Source: a virus. Taken from it: a DNA stretch of 55,727 nt. Location: UHGV virus genome UHGV-0036148. One strand, written 5' to 3'. The notes beneath the pieces are model-generated. The model was not told the DNA's origin, searched no databases, and saw nothing but the letters and a program-made list of their open reading frames with translations. The position numbers were made by a program, and so were the translations under genes. Each line of letters starts with the position of its first letter. Position 1 is the stretch's first letter. Positions 1,670 through 53,148 of the stretch are shown here, piece by piece.

Positions 1670-1859
1670 TATCGTCACCCCGTTTGTATATTTTGATTGG
1701 CTTGATTGGGATTGCTGGCAATTCACCTTCATTCAATGCGCTTGCCATGCCCAATATTAAACGCGCTTCAGCACCAGTAACTTTCTTACACCACGCACCG
1801 CCCGTTTTATCTTCGAACAAGATAACGGCAAACTGATCGTTTATTTCCAGCTTATCCAT
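1659..1859 (-). CDS. hypothetical protein (66 aa)
   Basis: start overlaps Q stop codon (TAATG); operon context. Confidence 0.4.
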   Translation of the reverse strand: MDKLEINDQFAVILFEDKTGGAWCKKVTGAEARLILGMASALNEGELPAIPIKPIKIYKRGDDNEA

Positions 1860-2581
1860 TATTCACCCCGTGTCACTCGTTTGATTTCGTTGTCAGCCCG
1901 CGCCTCTTCTTTGAACAATTCGGCAATGGCGTCTTCATAGAAAGCCCGGTATTTCTTCCACCATGTTGATCGGCTTACCGGGAAAACAAGCTGATTAACC
2001 GCCTGCCGGACAAGATCTACAGGGAAACGCGAGTACCCGCGCCCGCCGCAGTGCTGGCACGTTTTGAACACTGGCATTTCCGCCGCTTCACTGGCTGCTT
2101 TATCCGGTACTTCGCCACGGCCCTTGCATTGTTTGCAATGATTGCGAACCGTCCCATGCCCCTTGCATTTTTTGCAAAGGTGTTTCTCACCGTATTCGTC
2201 AAACGTAAATTTATATCCGCCGCACTCCATACAAGTTTTTTCCGTCGCGGCGCTTTGGCAATAATCCCGAAACGCGAAAACGGCAACAAGAATAATGAGA
2301 TCATTGCGTTTGGCCTCGTCCAGTTCCATAACGTATTCATAATCTTTTGCCATAGCCCTTAAACGCTCTGTAAGCAAAACTACGGCCTTATGTTTTTCGG
2401 CTTGTGATAGTTCCATCTTTCCCAAAAAAGCGCTATAACCAAGCTCTACGCGCGATTGCGCCATACCTGCCGCAGTTAGTGCATCCGTAGTATTAAGAGC
2501 GTCCGGGGACGTGCCCCGGCTTTCATCTGATAAACGCGGTGATTTTGGGAAGTGGAATTTAAGAATAGATTCCAGATTCAT
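1859..2581 (-). CDS. Q: late antiterminator Q (lambda type) with extra CxxCxGxG zinc-finger repeats
   Basis: N-terminus MNLESILKFHFPKSPRLSDE... and C-terminus ...GYSRFPV...ADNEIKRVTR parallel lambda Q as I recall it; four CxxCxGxG motifs. Confidence 0.8.
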   Translation of the reverse strand: MNLESILKFHFPKSPRLSDESRGTSPDALNTTDALTAAGMAQSRVELGYSAFLGKMELSQAEKHKAVVLLTERLRAMAKDYEYVMELDEAKRNDLIILVAVFAFRDYCQSAATEKTCMECGGYKFTFDEYGEKHLCKKCKGHGTVRNHCKQCKGRGEVPDKAASEAAEMPVFKTCQHCGGRGYSRFPVDLVRQAVNQLVFPVSRSTWWKKYRAFYEDAIAELFKEEARADNEIKRVTRGE

Positions 2582-2763
2582 TATTTGCCCCCGTAACGAG
2601 CAATAAGGTGTTTACGATCAGAAATAGACTGAACTAACTTTCTCTCAAGCTCTTTCAATGCAAGCAATTCGCGCATATGAAAAGCCTGGATTTGTCGGAC
2701 TGTAGCTAAATAATGCTCATCGCGCTGAATATCTATTTGCAGATCTTTAATTTCGTTTTTCAT
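2581..2763 (-). CDS. hypothetical small protein (60 aa)
   Basis: ORF between rusA and Q; no recognisable motif. Confidence 0.35.
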   Translation of the reverse strand: MKNEIKDLQIDIQRDEHYLATVRQIQAFHMRELLALKELERKLVQSISDRKHLIARYGGK

Positions 2764-3168: not shown

Positions 3169-3770
3169 GCTGCCTTTCTCCTTAAGGCGTCTAATTTAGC
3201 CTGATAGACTTTTATGATTTCCTTACATTCTTCTATCGTCCATTTGTGAGTTTCGTTGTTGTTCTCCAGCGCCACCACCCTGGCGAGGCCAATTTTTCGA
3301 ATCAGTGCCGGGCGATACCCTCCGATGTTGCCGTCTAGTGTCTGGTTGCAGTGCCTGCATTGCTTGTGACAATTATCATCGTTGAAACGAAGATGTCCTG
3401 CGGCGGCTACCGTCCTGTAATGGCCTGCATCCCACCCGCATTGCTCACCGTAGTAAGTCCCGCATGATATGCACGGCAATCGCGAGTCACGCTCGCGTAT
3501 ATAAGCGTTAAAAACGTTTTGTGCCTGTTTAATCCAGTAGCTACGCGGATTTAACTGCTTCCGCTTCCGGCTGCGCTCTTCCCGCTGGCTATCACGGCGT
3601 CTCTTCCGCTCCATAGCCTTCATAGCCTTCTCACGGTCGCGGCATAGCTGATCAAACTTCAGCTCTTCCAGACATTCATCGCTGCACCATGTTTGATTGT
3701 GATATTTAGGCTCAAAAAAAACGCCGCAGCATTTGCAACGGCGTCTTATGGGTTTTTTAGGGTTCTGCAT
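3165..3770 (-). CDS. ninG: NinG/Rap-like recombination protein
   Basis: RRRCKCCG, PRSYWIKQAQ, LPCISCGT, DAGHYRT, LRFN, HKQC, HRWTIEECK parallel lambda NinG; ATG at 3770 with GGGGTGG SD. Confidence 0.75.
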   Translation of the reverse strand: MQNPKKPIRRRCKCCGVFFEPKYHNQTWCSDECLEELKFDQLCRDREKAMKAMERKRRRDSQREERSRKRKQLNPRSYWIKQAQNVFNAYIRERDSRLPCISCGTYYGEQCGWDAGHYRTVAAAGHLRFNDDNCHKQCRHCNQTLDGNIGGYRPALIRKIGLARVVALENNNETHKWTIEECKEIIKVYQAKLDALRRKAA

Positions 3771-3784
3771 AAAAACCACCCCGA

Positions 3785-3961
3785 TTATTTTTGATTCTCT
3801 GTTTCGTTCAGCCTTTCGGCGTGTCCGGCCCTTAGCCAATGTTCTAAGCATTCGTTGCACTCGTTACAGCCTCCTTTCTTCGTGCTGCATACATTGCACA
3901 TTGCACGCATGACGCTCTCTCGTTCATAGTCGTCATGCCATTGGTAATTATCAAAAGGCAT
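3785..3961 (-). CDS. small Cys-rich protein (putative zinc-binding)
   Basis: CNVCSTKKGGCNECNEC motif; ATG at 3961 with AAGGAG SD. Confidence 0.4.
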   Translation of the reverse strand: MPFDNYQWHDDYERESVMRAMCNVCSTKKGGCNECNECLEHWLRAGHAERLNETENQK

Positions 3962-4120
3962 AATGCTCTCTCCTTTTAAGGTGATTTCTACGCATTTCAG
4001 CGCTGCCGGATTTTTAAAGAGCATTTTGCTTGCTTGAAGTATACAAAATGGATACGTGTAAACAAGACGAATAGCGCCATTATGTGATCCACATCACGCA
4101 ATGGCGCCATTTTGTAAATT

Positions 4121-4909
4121 TCAGTCCGGCAAAACGCGGTTGAGCGTAGTACGATTGATGGCCCTGTCGTTAGCCAGGAACACAGCACGGGCAAAGCCGC
4201 GCGGCGTTAGTGAGCGGATCATCTTAGTGCGTTTCGACTTTCCTCCCAACTTCGCGTGCTGCTTACTGTCTTCCCATTCGTCCGGCATTGGCACAGGCCG
4301 GAACAGCGGCTGTTTAAATCCGTTGCCGCACCAAATACAAGTTTTCTTCGTGTATGCGTCGCGGGCCGCTATGTATTCAGGGAAGGCAGGATGTTTGTCA
4401 TCTTCCGGCAGGTAGCCACCGTAAGCGCACGGGTTGAAAATAAAATCAGGTTTACGCCATAGCGTTGACAGTGCGCCCACCGGATTTTCCACCATCCACG
4501 GCACGTTATACATATTCGCCAGTTTTTCTACCAATTTTGCGTTATACGCCGCCTTTACCTGGAAAGCAGGATCTTTTTTTCGCTTATCAGCGAACCAGCG
4601 AGCACCAGACACAGCGAGATCGTCGCACGGCGGAAAGCCCAATATAATGTCAGGTGCTGGATAAGAAGATAATTCAGGCGAGAACATTGCCAGGAAATGG
4701 CTGTCAATCCACACGTTAACGTATTCAATATTCGGATGAATGATTTTAACGCCTTCATAATCGCCGTGATTTGCGCCGTCATAGTTGAAGCAATAGCACT
4801 TATATCCTGCTTCCGCCCAATCTTTAACGGCGTACCCGCTGCCGTCGTACAGCGACCACACAACCCAACTTCTAAGCCAATTATTTAACCAGTGTTTAGC
4901 CTTGCTCAT
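4121..4909 (-). CDS. putative DNA C5-cytosine methyltransferase-like protein
   Basis: LYDGSGY (motif I-like), GFPPCDD (PC motif IV-like), MVENPVG (ENV motif VI-like); short, no obvious target-recognition domain. Confidence 0.45.
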   Translation of the reverse strand: MSKAKHWLNNWLRSWVVWSLYDGSGYAVKDWAEAGYKCYCFNYDGANHGDYEGVKIIHPNIEYVNVWIDSHFLAMFSPELSSYPAPDIILGFPPCDDLAVSGARWFADKRKKDPAFQVKAAYNAKLVEKLANMYNVPWMVENPVGALSTLWRKPDFIFNPCAYGGYLPEDDKHPAFPEYIAARDAYTKKTCIWCGNGFKQPLFRPVPMPDEWEDSKQHAKLGGKSKRTKMIRSLTPRGFARAVFLANDRAINRTTLNRVLPD

Positions 4910-49901: not shown

Positions 49902-49978
49902 TTCCTGAACCCTCGATAAAAGTCAACAGCAACGACCACAACTACAGCCACCAATAACAGCATTTCATATGCGTTCAT
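49898..49978 (-). CDS. mini membrane peptide 6 of array (26 aa)
   Basis: MNAYEMLLLVAVVVVVAVDFYRGFRK; GGGAG SD. Confidence 0.4.
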   Translation of the reverse strand: MNAYEMLLLVAVVVVVAVDFYRGFRK

Positions 49979-50072
49979 CGACACTCCCTATAACCAGCCC
50001 AATAATAAGGATGATGGCGACAACGCCCAGCATCATGCCGAACATGATCGCCAGTAATTCGAATATATCCAT
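49965..50072 (-). CDS. mini membrane peptide 5 of array (35 aa)
   Basis: MDIFELLAIMFGMMLGVVAIILIIGLVIGSVDERI; AGGTGA SD. Confidence 0.4.
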   Translation of the reverse strand: MDIFELLAIMFGMMLGVVAIILIIGLVIGSVDERI

Positions 50073-50080
50073 GCCGTCAC

Positions 50081-50155
50081 CTATACGACATTCTTCCACC
50101 AGAAATAGATAATGACGGCGACCACTGACCACCAGATGAGATCGTAAACACTCAT
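50081..50155 (-). CDS. mini membrane peptide 4 of array (24 aa)
   Basis: MSVYDLIWWSVVAVIIYFWWKNVV; GAGG SD. Confidence 0.4.
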   Translation of the reverse strand: MSVYDLIWWSVVAVIIYFWWKNVV

Positions 50156-50252: not shown

Positions 50253-50348
50253 TTAGCATTTGCTCTTTGTGGCTATCAGCACAGCGATAACAAAACCCAC
50301 CAGGAATACAGACACGCCGATCAATCCGGCTATTTCGTAAGCGTTCAT
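50253..50348 (-). CDS. mini membrane peptide 2 of array (31 aa)
   Basis: MNAYEIAGLIGVSVFLVGFVIAVLIATKSKC; shares MNAYE start with peptide 6. Confidence 0.4.
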   Translation of the reverse strand: MNAYEIAGLIGVSVFLVGFVIAVLIATKSKC

Positions 50349-50423: not shown

Positions 50424-51008
50424 TTACCCCCGTTTAAAGCTCATCACACGCGGTACAAGCGCCTCTTTTGTTTTAGGCTTACGTTTGCCTTTCTTAGCTG
50501 GTTTTTTCTCTTCTTTCGGCTCCTCTGCCTGTTCAACTGCCTGTTCTGCTGCATCAGTCGCCTTCTCTGCCTGTTCCAGTGCCTTCTCTACGACTTCGGC
50601 GGCCTGCATAGCTGCCAACTGTGCTTCGTTAGATTCAGCAAGGATCGGGAAGAATGCGTCAAAGATGCGGCCCACCATGTAAGCATAAGTCTCGTTCGCT
50701 GGATGGCTTGGATCAGTGGTCGCTACGACGCCCACATCGCTCAGTACGTGGAATGTAGTGTGTGCGCATTCATGGACCAGAGTACCAAGCTCATTATCGA
50801 ATACTGCGATCACGTAGAAGTTACCGCCTTTCTCGCCAGTGCAAGTAAGTGTTAAACCTCCTGCCAGTTCAAAATCAGGTTCGATTGGAATGCCTGCCTT
50901 TTCGCAAAACTCGTAAAACATGTCGCGAGTAGGGCAGAAGAAAACTGTTGTATGCTCAAAGAGCGGGACTTTGAATTGAGGCAATTTAATGCCTTTAGCC
51001 TTAGCCAT
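50424..51008 (-). CDS. HExxH motif protein (putative zinc metallopeptidase-like) with Ala/Glu/Lys-rich basic tail
   Basis: LVHECAHTTFH motif; AGGAG SD; low-complexity C-terminus. Confidence 0.45.
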   Translation of the reverse strand: MAKAKGIKLPQFKVPLFEHTTVFFCPTRDMFYEFCEKAGIPIEPDFELAGGLTLTCTGEKGGNFYVIAVFDNELGTLVHECAHTTFHVLSDVGVVATTDPSHPANETYAYMVGRIFDAFFPILAESNEAQLAAMQAAEVVEKALEQAEKATDAAEQAVEQAEEPKEEKKPAKKGKRKPKTKEALVPRVMSFKRG

Positions 51009-51287
51009 CAGAATAATCTCCTATTCTGAAAAATATAACCCCCGCAAAACTCGACACCGCAGGGAGTGAAAACAGCTATAAAACACTGAAAACGGCGCTT
51101 CATCAGTACCGTTTCCAGAATTTTATAAAATTGGTGAATGGCGCTTTCTTCTACCCAGGTAGCGCCCGACCTGTTAATGGGACTGTTGATCCGGTATTAC
51201 GTGTTTTTGACTATTCCGCCGTCGCTCGCGGGAAGGATTGGCCCGGTTATGGCTGGCTGGCGAAAACGGCGACACGTCCACGCGCTG

Positions 51288-51758
51288 TTATTTTTTGCGT
51301 AAGCACTGCGTTTTGATATAGCTCTGAAGTCCGGCGATCTTCGCGTCTTTCTCTTTTAGTTGTTCTCTGAGGGATAGATAAGCCGATTCAGCGTCTGGAG
51401 TGAGTCTACAGGTGGCTCCATCAATGCGGCTGGCGGTTCCGGTATTGTCGAGCAATCGCACTGGCTCGGCGTTGACGTGCAACCGGATAGCACCGCTATC
51501 AATGCCAGCACGCAGATCGGCAATGTCAGATCTGATAGCTTTAATCTCATCGTGATACCTCTTATCAAGTTTTGACAGTTCGGCGTTTCGCTCCTTCATC
51601 TGCTGAATAGTGTTACTTGCTGTTTTTAGTGCGCCTTTCGTCACCGTGACTTCTTCCTGCAACCTTGCCGTTTCACCCTGGTAATAACACGTTACGGCTG
51701 TAAGGCTGGCAATAATGCAAACAACAACGGCGATGATTAACGTCTTCACCTTGTCCAT
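51288..51758 (-). CDS. i-spanin (Rz-like)
   Basis: N-terminal TM helix then coiled-coil; directly downstream of endolysin. Confidence 0.65.
51356..51550 (-). CDS. o-spanin (Rz1-like) embedded in Rz in alternate frame
   Basis: [24 protein letters not shown] lipobox, Pro-rich mature part; fully nested in Rz. Confidence 0.55.
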   Translation of the reverse strand: MRLKLSDLTLPICVLALIAVLSGCTSTPSQCDCSTIPEPPAALMEPPVDSLQTLNRLIYPSENN

Positions 51759-52237
51759 TTCTCACCCCATTCGCAAACGGCATATTCAACCTCGCGGCGG
51801 TTTACCAGGCCTTGCCACTTCTTACCGCCAGCGTATACCCAGCGTTTAAGCTGTGCGCACGCTTCTGATTTCTTGCCGTCATTGAGTAGTTTTAATAAGG
51901 TTGATGTTTTAAAGTTGGTTGTGCCTACGTTATAGGCGAATGAATAAAGTGCTGCGCGGGTAAAATCTGATATTTCGACTTTAATATAGGGATCGATCGC
52001 TTTTGCGGTCTTGTGTAGATCTTTATTTAACAAAGTATCGCATTCTGATTGCGTGTAAGTCTTGCCAAGCATGATGTCTTTTCCGGTGTGACCGTGGCAA
52101 ACAGTCCACACACCAACAACATCACGATAAGGATTGTAATCAACTCCCTCTAATGGCTTAATCATCACCGCCGCAATAGCGATCGCCCCACCAGCCGCCG
52201 CCGCAACAATCTTGTTTTTCAGCGATTGGCTAATCAT
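51746..52237 (-). CDS. SAR endolysin (T4-lysozyme-like muramidase)
   Basis: Gly/Ala-rich N-terminal SAR segment [18 protein letters not shown]; E...D...T catalytic spacing in [18 protein letters not shown]. Confidence 0.85.
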
Positions 52238-52438
52238 TTACTTATTCCCCATTCGCGCGTCGTGTTCCTCTTGCGCTCGCTTGTTCTCCTGTGATTTGAA
52301 GTAATAGTTAACGGCAAATGTGCCTACGGTTGATAAGATACCCACAAAGACGGCAATATCATTGATGGTTATCGCGCCGAAAAAAGCAGTTACGGCCCCA
52401 GTCACATACGCGCACGCCTCCCGTATTCTGTCTAACAT
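52238..52438 (-). CDS. holin (pinholin-like, two TM segments)
   Basis: 66 aa, two hydrophobic segments, charged C-terminus, immediately upstream of SAR endolysin. Confidence 0.65.
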   Translation of the reverse strand: MLDRIREACAYVTGAVTAFFGAITINDIAVFVGILSTVGTFAVNYYFKSQENKRAQEEHDARMGNK

Positions 52439-52455
52439 AGATTTACCTCCAACAA

Positions 52456-52480
52456 AGCAAAAACCCGGCGCGGGGCCGGG
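52456..52480 (-). terminator. rho-independent terminator immediately upstream of holin (tR'-like)
   Basis: minus strand CCCGGC-cccgc-GCCGGG followed by TTTTTGCTTTGTT. Confidence 0.55.
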
Positions 52481-52508
52481 TAATTACAATTTCGCATTGT
52501 TAGGTAAT

Positions 52509-52537
52509 ATTTTAATCTGTTTGTTTACGCTCTACAA
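52509..52537 (-). promoter_or_regulatory. candidate late promoter (PR'-like)
   Basis: minus strand TTGTAG - 17 bp - TAAAAT about 30 nt upstream of terminator hairpin. Confidence 0.3.
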
Positions 52538-52545
52538 ATACGGCT

Positions 52546-52722
52546 TTACGACTTTCTTTTTATCAGGCCATTATCAAGCAATAATTGCATTTGTTCACGG
52601 CTCATATTTACACCAGACCAGAAAGGCCGCTCACTCGACATAACAAAAACCTTTTCACCTTTCAGCAAGTAAGCAATATCAAATACATTATGCAAATAGA
52701 TGCCGTCTTCGATCTCGTTCAT
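52546..52722 (-). CDS. hypothetical protein (58 aa)
   Basis: ORF below 60-aa cutoff found by manual translation; MNEIEDGIYLHNVF... Confidence 0.3.
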   Translation of the reverse strand: MNEIEDGIYLHNVFDIAYLLKGEKVFVMSSERPFWSGVNMSREQMQLLLDNGLIKRKS

Positions 52723-52916
52723 AGCTCACCAACCTTGCGCCAATATCCGTGATTAAACATCGTGATGATCTCCACAGATGTCATAGGTAAAAACGGCTCA
52801 TGCCACTTCTCAAACTGACTTAATCGCATCATCACTTGTTCACCTTCAAGGCGATAATAAGCGCGTGAAGCCAATGACTGATAAACACCGTCATATTGAT
52901 GGTTGCTATTTCCCAT
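52719..52916 (-). CDS. hypothetical protein (65 aa)
   Basis: ORF in operon context. Confidence 0.35.
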   Translation of the reverse strand: MGNSNHQYDGVYQSLASRAYYRLEGEQVMMRLSQFEKWHEPFLPMTSVEIITMFNHGYWRKVGEL

Positions 52917-53148
52917 TTTTACGCTCCTTAATGGCTCGCTTGATCTGCTCTACCGTAGCATCGAAGAAAGCAAGAAACATAACTACAGGCCATAAAGGAA
53001 TCTCAAGGCCACCAGGTTTAGCACCGCTAAACTTAATAAAACATGACATCAGGATCGCGCCAGCGATATAAAGCAAAACAATCACAGCAATAAGGCATTC
53101 AATCATCATCGTCCTCATCGTCCTCATGTTCAGCCAGGAACTCATCAA
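52906..53148 (-). CDS. small membrane protein (two TM)
   Basis: IAVIVLLYIAGAILMSCFI and LWPVVMFLAFF hydrophobic segments. Confidence 0.4.
   Translation of the reverse strand: MMSSWLNMRTMRTMMIECLIAVIVLLYIAGAILMSCFIKFSGAKPGGLEIPLWPVVMFLAFFDATVEQIKRAIKERKNGK

What the first reader, a model, noticed from the sequence alone, without database searches (positions are those of the whole stretch)
51288..52438. Pinholin / SAR-endolysin / Rz-Rz1 lysis cassette
The 66-aa two-TM holin, an endolysin with a Gly/Ala-rich signal-anchor-release N-terminus, and a nested Rz1 lipoprotein gene inside Rz indicate a phage 21-type lysis strategy rather than the lambda S/R type.
Basis: partly seen in the sequence, partly recalled or inferred. 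Interest (0 to 1): 0.35.

Follow-up and report, generated by a model that had tools for sequence, protein, structure and literature searches.

The report
Pinholin-type phage lysis cassette
This is an ordinary, intact four-gene phage lysis cassette (small two-helix holin, membrane-anchored SAR lysozyme, and nested Rz/Rz1 spanins) of an mEp021-group coliphage, working like the well-studied phage 21 system although its holin belongs to the HP1 holin family rather than the phage 21 one.

Summary
The genes are a holin (52438..52238, 66 aa), an endolysin (52237..51746, 163 aa), Rz (51758..51288, 156 aa) and Rz1 (51550..51356, 64 aa), which lies wholly inside Rz in the +1 frame.

The endolysin is a close relative of the solved phage 21 SAR endolysin R21 (E 2.8e-64). 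It keeps the Gly/Ala-rich N-terminal anchor and the E-X8-D-X5-T catalytic triad. Rz and Rz1 match their Pfam families. The Rz1 ORF and its lipobox are intact in all 46 related loci.

One correction: the holin is not a phage 21 S-family member. It falls below the Pfam cutoff and BLASTP finds nothing. It belongs to the HP1 holin family, whose prototype was shown experimentally to behave as a pinholin. It is a remote S21 homolog (hhalign 98.3%) and has no dual-start antiholin. Its relatives sit next to SAR-type endolysins in 27 of 29 loci examined.

The window is an mEp021/mEpimmI-group phage, and the cassette is already annotated in relatives and in 35 E. coli genomes. The pinholin function itself is inferred, not shown. 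Novelty is low.

The parts
52238..52438 (-). Class II holin, 66 aa, HP1 holin family, putative pinholin. TMD1 is about residues 8-24 (53-59% G/A/S/T). TMD2 is about residues 28-47. The C-terminal tail is charged. It has a single start codon preceded by GGAGG.
   Evidence: Pfam and PHROGs. Hydropathy. hhalign against the S21 family gives 98.3%. No in-frame upstream start, and the internal GTG at codon 12 is not conserved.
51746..52237 (-). SAR endolysin, 163 aa, GH24 T4-type lysozyme, R21-like. The N-terminal basic region has K7 and K9. The SAR domain is residues 10-26. The catalytic triad is E30-X8-D39-X5-T45. There is no Cys in the SAR domain.
   Evidence: PF00959. PDB matches 3hde, 3hdf and 4zpu. 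65% identity to R21. SAR composition. Triad motif defined in PMC9239132 and PMC3556154.
51288..51758 (-). Rz i-spanin, 156 aa. It has an N-terminal TMD (residues 6-22), a periplasmic coiled-coil-like domain, and periplasmic Cys117 and Cys152. It overlaps the endolysin 3' end by 13 nt.
   Evidence: PF03245 and phrog_13. 32% identity to Rz of phage 21. Hydropathy.
51356..51550 (-). Rz1 o-spanin lipoprotein, 64 aa precursor, fully embedded in Rz in the +1 frame. The lipobox is LSGC (Cys24). The mature protein is 41 aa, Pro-rich, with Thr at +2 and a C-x-C motif.
   Evidence: PF06085 and phrog_3198. 42% identity to Rz1 of phage 21. The ORF, its ATG and its lipobox are intact in 46/46 related loci, which carry 29 distinct sequences.
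52439..52520 (-). Conserved non-coding leader directly upstream of the holin. It has a -10-like TAAAAT, a CCTAACA motif, an intrinsic terminator hairpin (52481..52463) with a U-tract, and then the holin Shine-Dalgarno sequence. It is probably a late promoter and terminator under Q-type antitermination.
   Evidence: Terminator scan. RNA fold z = -3.7. Nucleotide diversity 0.053 here against 0.38 just upstream. Colinear with the ST104 region downstream of gene 23. Annotated as TERM_5 in mEp021.

Best explanation
This is the late-expressed lysis cassette of an mEp021/mEpimmI-group temperate coliphage. It works by the pinholin and SAR-endolysin pathway.

1. The endolysin is exported by the host Sec system. 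Its weakly hydrophobic N-terminal SAR helix tethers it, inactive, to the periplasmic face of the inner membrane.
2. The 66-aa holin accumulates in the inner membrane. At a set time it triggers and depolarises the membrane, most likely through small holes after its Gly/Ala/Thr-rich TMD1 leaves the bilayer.
3. Loss of proton-motive force releases the SAR domain. The lysozyme refolds into its active form, as R21 does without a cysteine switch, and degrades the murein.
4. The Rz (inner membrane) and Rz1 (outer-membrane lipoprotein) complex then disrupts the outer membrane.

Shown here: gene identities, architecture, homology, conservation and gene pairing.

Inferred: hole size, TMD1 externalisation, timing, and Q-dependent transcription from the conserved leader.
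For: Identity and close relatives:
- Family matches for all four genes.
- The endolysin matches R21 and RrrD structures at E about 1e-64, including the SAR segment and the GG pair. The catalytic triad spacing is retained.
- The crude insertion energy and the 59% G/A content of its SAR segment match those of R21. They differ from the true Rz TMD.

Holin evidence:
- It belongs to the HP1 family, whose prototype was lethal without lysis and did not leak beta-galactosidase, and which pairs with a SAR endolysin (PMC7312051).
- Profile-profile homology to the S21 pinholin family: 98.3%, E 2e-14, across both TMDs and the tail.
- Holin relatives are followed by endolysins with SAR-like N-termini in 17/18 distant IMG/VR loci and 10/11 annotated phages.
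- The one clear exception, APSE-7, carries an additional lambda-type holin alongside a soluble lysozyme.

Spanins and functionality:
- Rz1 is conserved in 46/46 loci.
- Plaque-forming relatives carry proteins with 81-98% identity (holin 95-98%, endolysin 93-97%, Rz 87-90%, Rz1 81-86%).

The general model is taken from PMC6116005 and PMC6139136.
Against: - No experiment on this protein or its close relatives was found. The mEpimmI paper does not discuss holins or endolysins.
- Holin TMD1 is much more hydrophobic than S21 TMD1 (crude sum +1.6 against +6.2 kcal/mol) and about equal to its own TMD2. Exit from the membrane is therefore less obvious.
- BLASTP finds no similarity to S21 or to HP1 Hol itself.
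- SAR endolysins can also work with canonical holins, as in phage P1 (PMC6116005).
- There is no antiholin dual start.
Confidence: 0.8

Rival explanations
1. The cassette is the same, but the holin is a canonical large-hole class II holin. It merely depolarises the membrane to release the SAR endolysin, as P1 LydA does with Lyz. It is not a pinholin.
For: TMD1 is about as hydrophobic as TMD2 and far more hydrophobic than S21 TMD1. There is precedent for SAR endolysins working with canonical holins (PMC6116005). Similarity to S21 is only remote.
Against: The holin belongs to the HP1 family, whose prototype behaves as a pinholin. It is homologous to S21. It pairs almost exclusively with SAR endolysins, and a second lambda-type holin is present where the lysozyme is soluble.
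Confidence: 0.15
2. The N-terminal segment of the endolysin is a cleavable signal peptide, not a signal-anchor-release domain. The enzyme would then be secreted as a soluble periplasmic protein and regulated in some other way.
For: The N-terminus has the n-region and h-region layout of a signal peptide, and it contains small residues (AIA, IAA).
Against: The segment is about 70% identical to the R21 SAR domain, which is retained and refolds into the active enzyme in structure 3hde. The small-residue motifs lie inside the hydrophobic core, with no c-region. The catalytic Glu30 follows only 3 residues after the segment.
Confidence: 0.03
3. The cassette is a decaying, non-functional prophage remnant.
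For: Homologous cassettes occur as prophages in 35 E. coli chromosomes.
Against: All four ORFs are intact with good ribosome-binding sites. The window is a full-length relative (about 55.7 kb) of plaque-forming phages, with 89% coverage at 92% identity to mEp515. The ORFs are conserved across 46 loci.
Confidence: 0.02

Closest known systems
Phage 21 lysis cassette S21/R21/Rz21/Rz1-21 (Escherichia phage 21, OL657228; also DLP12 essD-rrrD-rzpD/rzoD)
   Same: Same gene order and tight coupling. A two-TMD holin of 66-68 aa with a charged C-tail. An R21-type SAR lysozyme (65% identity in the catalytic domain, same triad, GG in the SAR domain, no Cys switch). Rz1 embedded in the +1 frame. A terminator shortly upstream of the holin.
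   Different: The holin is in another Pfam family (PF16080, not PF04971), with no BLASTP similarity, a loop about 9 residues shorter, a more hydrophobic TMD1 and no dual-start antiholin. The linker between the SAR domain and the catalytic Glu is 6 residues shorter. Rz is only 32% identical and Rz1 only 42% identical. The first periplasmic Cys of Rz is shifted, and Rz1 has a C-x-C motif.
Haemophilus phage HP1 hol/lys (pinholin + SAR endolysin; PMC7312051)
   Same: Same Pfam holin family. A single start codon with no antiholin. The holin is followed directly by a SAR lysozyme and then a spanin.
   Different: HP1 Hol is only about 22% identical in the family alignment, and BLASTP finds nothing. 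HP1 Lys is P1-Lyz-like, with Cys in the SAR domain and the catalytic region. HP1 has a different spanin arrangement.
mEp021 genes 46-48, MagusPhagus CDS0063-65, and E. coli prophage copies
   Same: Direct orthologs. About 93% nucleotide identity. Holin 95-98%, endolysin 93-97%, Rz 87-90% amino-acid identity. Same phage group.
   Different: Those records do not annotate Rz1, and they do not call the endolysin SAR or the holin a pinholin. The spanin genes are the most divergent part.
Salmonella P22-like phages ST104/BTP1/SPN9CC genes 13-19-15-Rz1
   Same: Holin 48-50% identical. R21-like SAR endolysin. Embedded Rz1. A similar promoter/terminator-like leader and the same Q family, PF03589.
   Different: The ST104 holin begins MYRMDK, a dual-start-like motif absent here. 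In ST104 the Q gene is adjacent to the leader, whereas here it lies about 5 kb away.

Membership tests
Phage 21 holin S family (Pfam PF04971 / TCDB 1.E.1) | Sequence match to the family model above the curated threshold | tested here: not met
   22.9 bits against a cutoff of 26, and only residues 28-56 match. BLASTP against S21 finds no alignment. Only remote profile-level homology, hhalign 98.3%.
Phage 21 holin S family (Pfam PF04971 / TCDB 1.E.1) | Dual-start motif giving an antiholin (S21-71) and a holin (S21-68) | tested here: not met
   There is no in-frame start upstream of the ATG at 52438. The upstream codons are GGT AAA TCT. The internal GTG at codon 12 is not conserved among relatives.
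HP1 holin family (Pfam PF16080 / TCDB 1.E.7, holin superfamily II) | Sequence match to the family model above the curated threshold | tested here: met
   54.1 bits against a cutoff of 28.8, covering residues 3-55. phrog_20 holin, E 4.7e-20.
Pinholin (functional class) | Two TMDs with N-in/C-in topology and a weakly hydrophobic, releasable TMD1 | tested here: inconclusive
   Two hydrophobic segments are present and TMD1 is 53-59% G/A/S/T. However, TMD1 is no less hydrophobic than TMD2. The 2-TMD prediction is noted for the mEp021 ortholog.
Pinholin (functional class) | Holes too small to pass an endolysin; lethal depolarisation without protein release | not testable with these tools
   This needs expression assays. 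Indirect support comes from pairing with SAR endolysins in 27/29 relatives and from the HP1 experiments.
SAR endolysin (R21 type) | GH24 lysozyme domain with the E-X8-D/C-X5-T triad | tested here: met
   PF00959, 150.7 bits. E30, D39 and T45 align with the R21 triad. Motif definitions.
SAR endolysin (R21 type) | N-terminal basic residues followed by an uncharged, Gly/Ala-rich TMD that is not cleaved | tested here: met
   K7 and K9, then a 17-residue run that is 59% G/A, homologous to the R21 SAR domain. Non-cleavage is inferred from homology only.
SAR endolysin (R21 type) | Sec-dependent export, membrane tethering, and release on depolarisation | not testable with these tools
   This requires fractionation and lysis assays. 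The definitive test is release by a pinholin (PMC9239132).
Two-component spanin, embedded architecture (lambda Rz/Rz1 type) | [quoted passage not shown] | tested here: met
   PF03245, 84.3 bits. TMD at residues 6-22. 32% identity to Rz21.
Two-component spanin, embedded architecture (lambda Rz/Rz1 type) | o-spanin lipoprotein with a lipobox, encoded entirely within the i-spanin gene in another frame | tested here: met
   +1 frame, spanning 0.44-0.86 of the Rz length. Lipobox LSGC. PF06085, 39.3 bits. Conserved in 46/46 loci. Definitions.
Two-component spanin, embedded architecture (lambda Rz/Rz1 type) | Periplasmic cysteines available for intermolecular disulfides | tested here: met
   Rz has C117 and C152. 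Mature Rz1 has Cys at precursor positions 31 and 33. Actual disulfide formation was not tested.

The most novel reading that the evidence does not exclude
The mEp021-type holin may be an HP1-family pinholin that has dispensed with any antiholin. Its TMD1 is as hydrophobic as its TMD2, so it may be timed by a mechanism different from S21 TMD1 externalisation. One possibility is TMD1 staying in the bilayer, with hole formation by both helices. Together with the late promoter/terminator placed about 5 kb from its Q gene, this would be a distinct way of controlling a SAR-endolysin lysis system.
Probability: 0.12. Interest if true: 0.4.

Novelty: already known. Interest (0 to 1): 0.15.

Why it matters
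This matters mainly for annotation. It shows that the mEpimmI coliphage group, which is common in the human gut, lyses by the pinholin and SAR-endolysin route. It adds the unannotated Rz1 o-spanin gene to these genomes. It also corrects the family assignment of the holin from phage 21 type to HP1 type. It does not open a new biological question. The lack of an antiholin and the unusually hydrophobic TMD1 are modest points that a lysis specialist could test.

Tried and rejected
- BLASTP of the holin against S21 and against HP1 Hol found nothing. Profile methods were needed.
- The word-indexed homolog search for the holin gave only 6 close hits. The exhaustive HMMER search gave 154.
- The search for related loci with the holin family alignment failed because no stretch was conserved enough. 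Annotated phage hits were used instead.
- An internal GTG at codon 12, preceded by GGGAGG, was considered as a second holin start. It was rejected because neither element is conserved in relatives.
- The TTG start for Rz1 at 51568 was rejected in favour of the ATG at 51550, which has an AAGAGG Shine-Dalgarno sequence and is conserved in all relatives.
- The small ORFs 51174..51281 (-) and 51138..51302 (+), downstream of Rz, were rejected as genes because relatives carry 1-nt indels there.
- Rfam and tRNA scans of the whole window found nothing.
- The sigma-70 consensus scan gave fewer hits than shuffled sequence and did not flag the leader promoter.
- Sun et al. 2009 (PMC3075974), on the R21 mechanism, was not available.
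- Structure prediction was not run, because solved structures at about 65-70% identity already answer the question.

Full report
**Observation.** The region 51288..52438 holds four genes on the minus strand.
- Holin: 52438..52238, 66 aa.
- Endolysin: 52237..51746, 163 aa. Its ATG directly follows the holin TAA.
- Rz: 51758..51288, 156 aa. It overlaps the endolysin 3' end by 13 nt.
- Rz1: 51550..51356, 64 aa. It lies entirely inside Rz in the +1 frame and has its own AAGAGG ribosome-binding site.

Pfam matches are all above the curated cutoffs: PF16080 for the holin, PF00959 for the lysozyme, PF03245 for Rz and PF06085 for Rz1. PHROGs assigns all four to lysis.

**Context.** The window is a full-length member of the mEp021/mEpimmI group of temperate coliphages.
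- The cassette is 91-93% identical in nucleotides to seven phage records.
- A 25-kb stretch of the window has 89% coverage at 92% identity to mEp515.
- The group is described in PMC11893012. That paper does not analyse the lysis proteins.
- mEp021 annotates a 'putative class II holin' (2 TMDs by TMHMM and Phobius), a 'putative lysozyme' and a 'putative lysis protein'. MagusPhagus annotates holin, endolysin and Rz-like spanin. Neither record annotates Rz1.
- The cassette occurs in 35 of 5426 complete E. coli genomes and in 44 close IMG/VR contigs.

**Endolysin.**
- It matches the solved SAR endolysins RrrD (4zpu, E 2.4e-65) and phage 21 R21 (3hde, E 2.8e-64). The alignment begins at residue 5, so it includes the N-terminal hydrophobic segment.
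- The catalytic domain is 65% identical to R21.
- The lysozyme triad E-X8-D-X5-T, as defined in PMC9239132 and PMC3556154, is present as E30, D39 and T45.
- The N-terminus has two lysines followed by [17 protein letters not shown], 17 uncharged residues that are 59% Gly/Ala. A crude insertion-energy sum is close to that of the R21 SAR domain and weaker than that of the true Rz TMD (scale values recalled from Hessa et al. 2005).
- The SAR segment has no cysteine, so the regulation should be of the R21 refolding type and not the P1 Lyz disulfide type.
- The linker between the SAR segment and the catalytic Glu is 6 residues shorter than in R21. Short linkers are common in related endolysins.

**Holin.**
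- It has two hydrophobic segments, residues 8-24 and 28-47, joined by a very short turn, and a charged C-terminal tail.
- It is an HP1-family holin (PF16080, 54 bits). The phage 21 S model scores below its cutoff (22.9 against 26) and covers only TMD2.
- BLASTP finds no alignment to S21 or to HP1 Hol. The S21 sequence used was verified as 100% identical to the phage 21 record.
- An exhaustive HMMER search gave 154 relatives. A profile built from 51 sequences aligns to an S21-family profile with 98.3% probability (E 2e-14) over both TMDs and the tail. The holin is therefore a remote S21 homolog in holin superfamily II, not a family member.
- It has a single start codon. Some relatives, such as ST104 with MYRMDK, have dual-start-like motifs.
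- The HP1 prototype also lacks a dual start. In experiments it behaved as a pinholin paired with a SAR endolysin (PMC7312051).

**Pairing test.** A pinholin cannot release a cytoplasmic endolysin, so the family should be tied to SAR endolysins.
- In the distant IMG/VR loci, 17 of 18 holin relatives are followed by a lysozyme with a Gly/Ala-rich N-terminal hydrophobic segment. The exception, L063, matches only part of the holin.
- In 11 annotated phages, 10 show the same pairing. For phiE125 the endolysin ORF as annotated lacks the N-terminal part, so its SAR segment was not seen. It is counted with its close relative Bcep176, which is annotated as a SAR endolysin.
- The exception, APSE-7, has a soluble lysozyme but also a second, lambda-type holin.
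- This supports the pinholin reading without proving it. SAR endolysins can work with canonical holins (PMC6116005), and TMD1 here is clearly more hydrophobic than S21 TMD1.

**Spanins.**
- Rz is 32% identical and Rz1 is 42% identical to the phage 21 proteins.
- Rz has an N-terminal TMD and periplasmic Cys117 and Cys152.
- Rz1 has the lipobox LSGC, Thr at +2 (outer-membrane sorting by the standard rule), a Pro-rich 41-aa mature part and a C-x-C motif.
- The embedded ORF spans 0.44-0.86 of the Rz length, typical of embedded spanins (PMC6139136).
- Across 46 related loci with 29 distinct Rz1 sequences, the ATG, the 64-codon length and the lipobox are always kept. That is strong evidence for selection on the nested frame.
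- The spanin genes are the most variable part of the cassette.

**Regulation (inferred).**
- The 82 nt upstream of the holin is as conserved as the coding sequence (diversity 0.053), while the sequence just beyond it is not (0.38).
- This stretch contains a -10-like TAAAAT, a CCTAACA motif and a GC hairpin with a U-tract. The hairpin is annotated as a terminator in mEp021.
- It is colinear with the region downstream of antiterminator gene 23 in P22-like phage ST104.
- The window has a Q protein of the same family (PF03589) at 1859..2581.
- I read this stretch as a late promoter and terminator under Q control. This is not demonstrated.

**Verdict.** The finding is real and correctly interpreted in function. 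The correction is that the holin is HP1-type, not phage 21-type, and has no antiholin. The cassette is already annotated in close relatives, so novelty and interest are low.

Noticed in passing
window 52439..52520 (minus strand): A conserved non-coding leader upstream of the holin. It has a -10-like TAAAAT, a CCTAACA motif and a terminator hairpin at 52481..52463. It resembles the P22/ST104 region downstream of gene 23. The Q-like gene (PF03589) lies at 1859..2581, about 5 kb upstream if the genome is circular, with only small ORFs between them.
   Followed up: partly
window 51125..51287 (minus strand, just downstream of Rz): A non-coding element of about 165 nt, highly conserved (diversity 0.038), with 1-nt indels in relatives that rule out the small ORFs called there. 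It contains CAGGTC-GGGCGCTACCT-GGG, which resembles lambda cosN (GGGCGGCGACCT, recalled from memory). It may be the cos site. Some relatives carry a 58-nt insertion right after it.
   Followed up: partly
window 51288..51758 and related loci L003-L046: Among otherwise about 90-98% identical phages, Rz (74-97% aa) and Rz1 (69-100% aa) vary much more than the holin and endolysin. The hot spots are Rz residues about 18-35 and 95-125, the latter overlapping the mature N-terminus of Rz1. This suggests mosaic exchange or co-evolution of the two spanin subunits.
   Followed up: partly
locus L034 (IMGVR_UViG_2703718833_000007) 3203..4660: This relative has a 92% identical holin and a 90% identical Rz. 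Its endolysin is different (54% identity, still SAR-like), and about 500 nt of extra DNA sits between the endolysin and Rz. This looks like module swapping inside the cassette.
   Followed up: no
locus L070 (APSE-7) 1801..2732: An HP1-family holin gene is followed by a lambda-family holin and a soluble lysozyme with no SAR domain. This two-holin arrangement is the only clear exception to the pairing of this holin family with SAR endolysins.
   Followed up: partly
window 49965..50132 (-), 50253..50348 (-), 52906..53148 (-): Small ORFs flanking the cassette encode strongly hydrophobic peptides of 55, 31 and 80 aa. The two submitted to Pfam (55 and 80 aa) had no match; the 31-aa ORF was not searched. 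They could be lysis regulators, exclusion proteins or spurious ORFs.
   Followed up: no
window 52546..52722 (-) and 52719..52916 (-): Two adjacent small ORFs of 58 and 65 aa, just upstream of the holin leader, both match phrog_15318 (unknown function). They are tandem paralogs.
   Followed up: no
window 50424..51008 (-): A 194-aa ORF lies between the lysis cassette and the terminase genes. It matches phrog_1365 (unknown function), has no Pfam match, and has a Lys/Glu-rich C-terminal tail.
   Followed up: no
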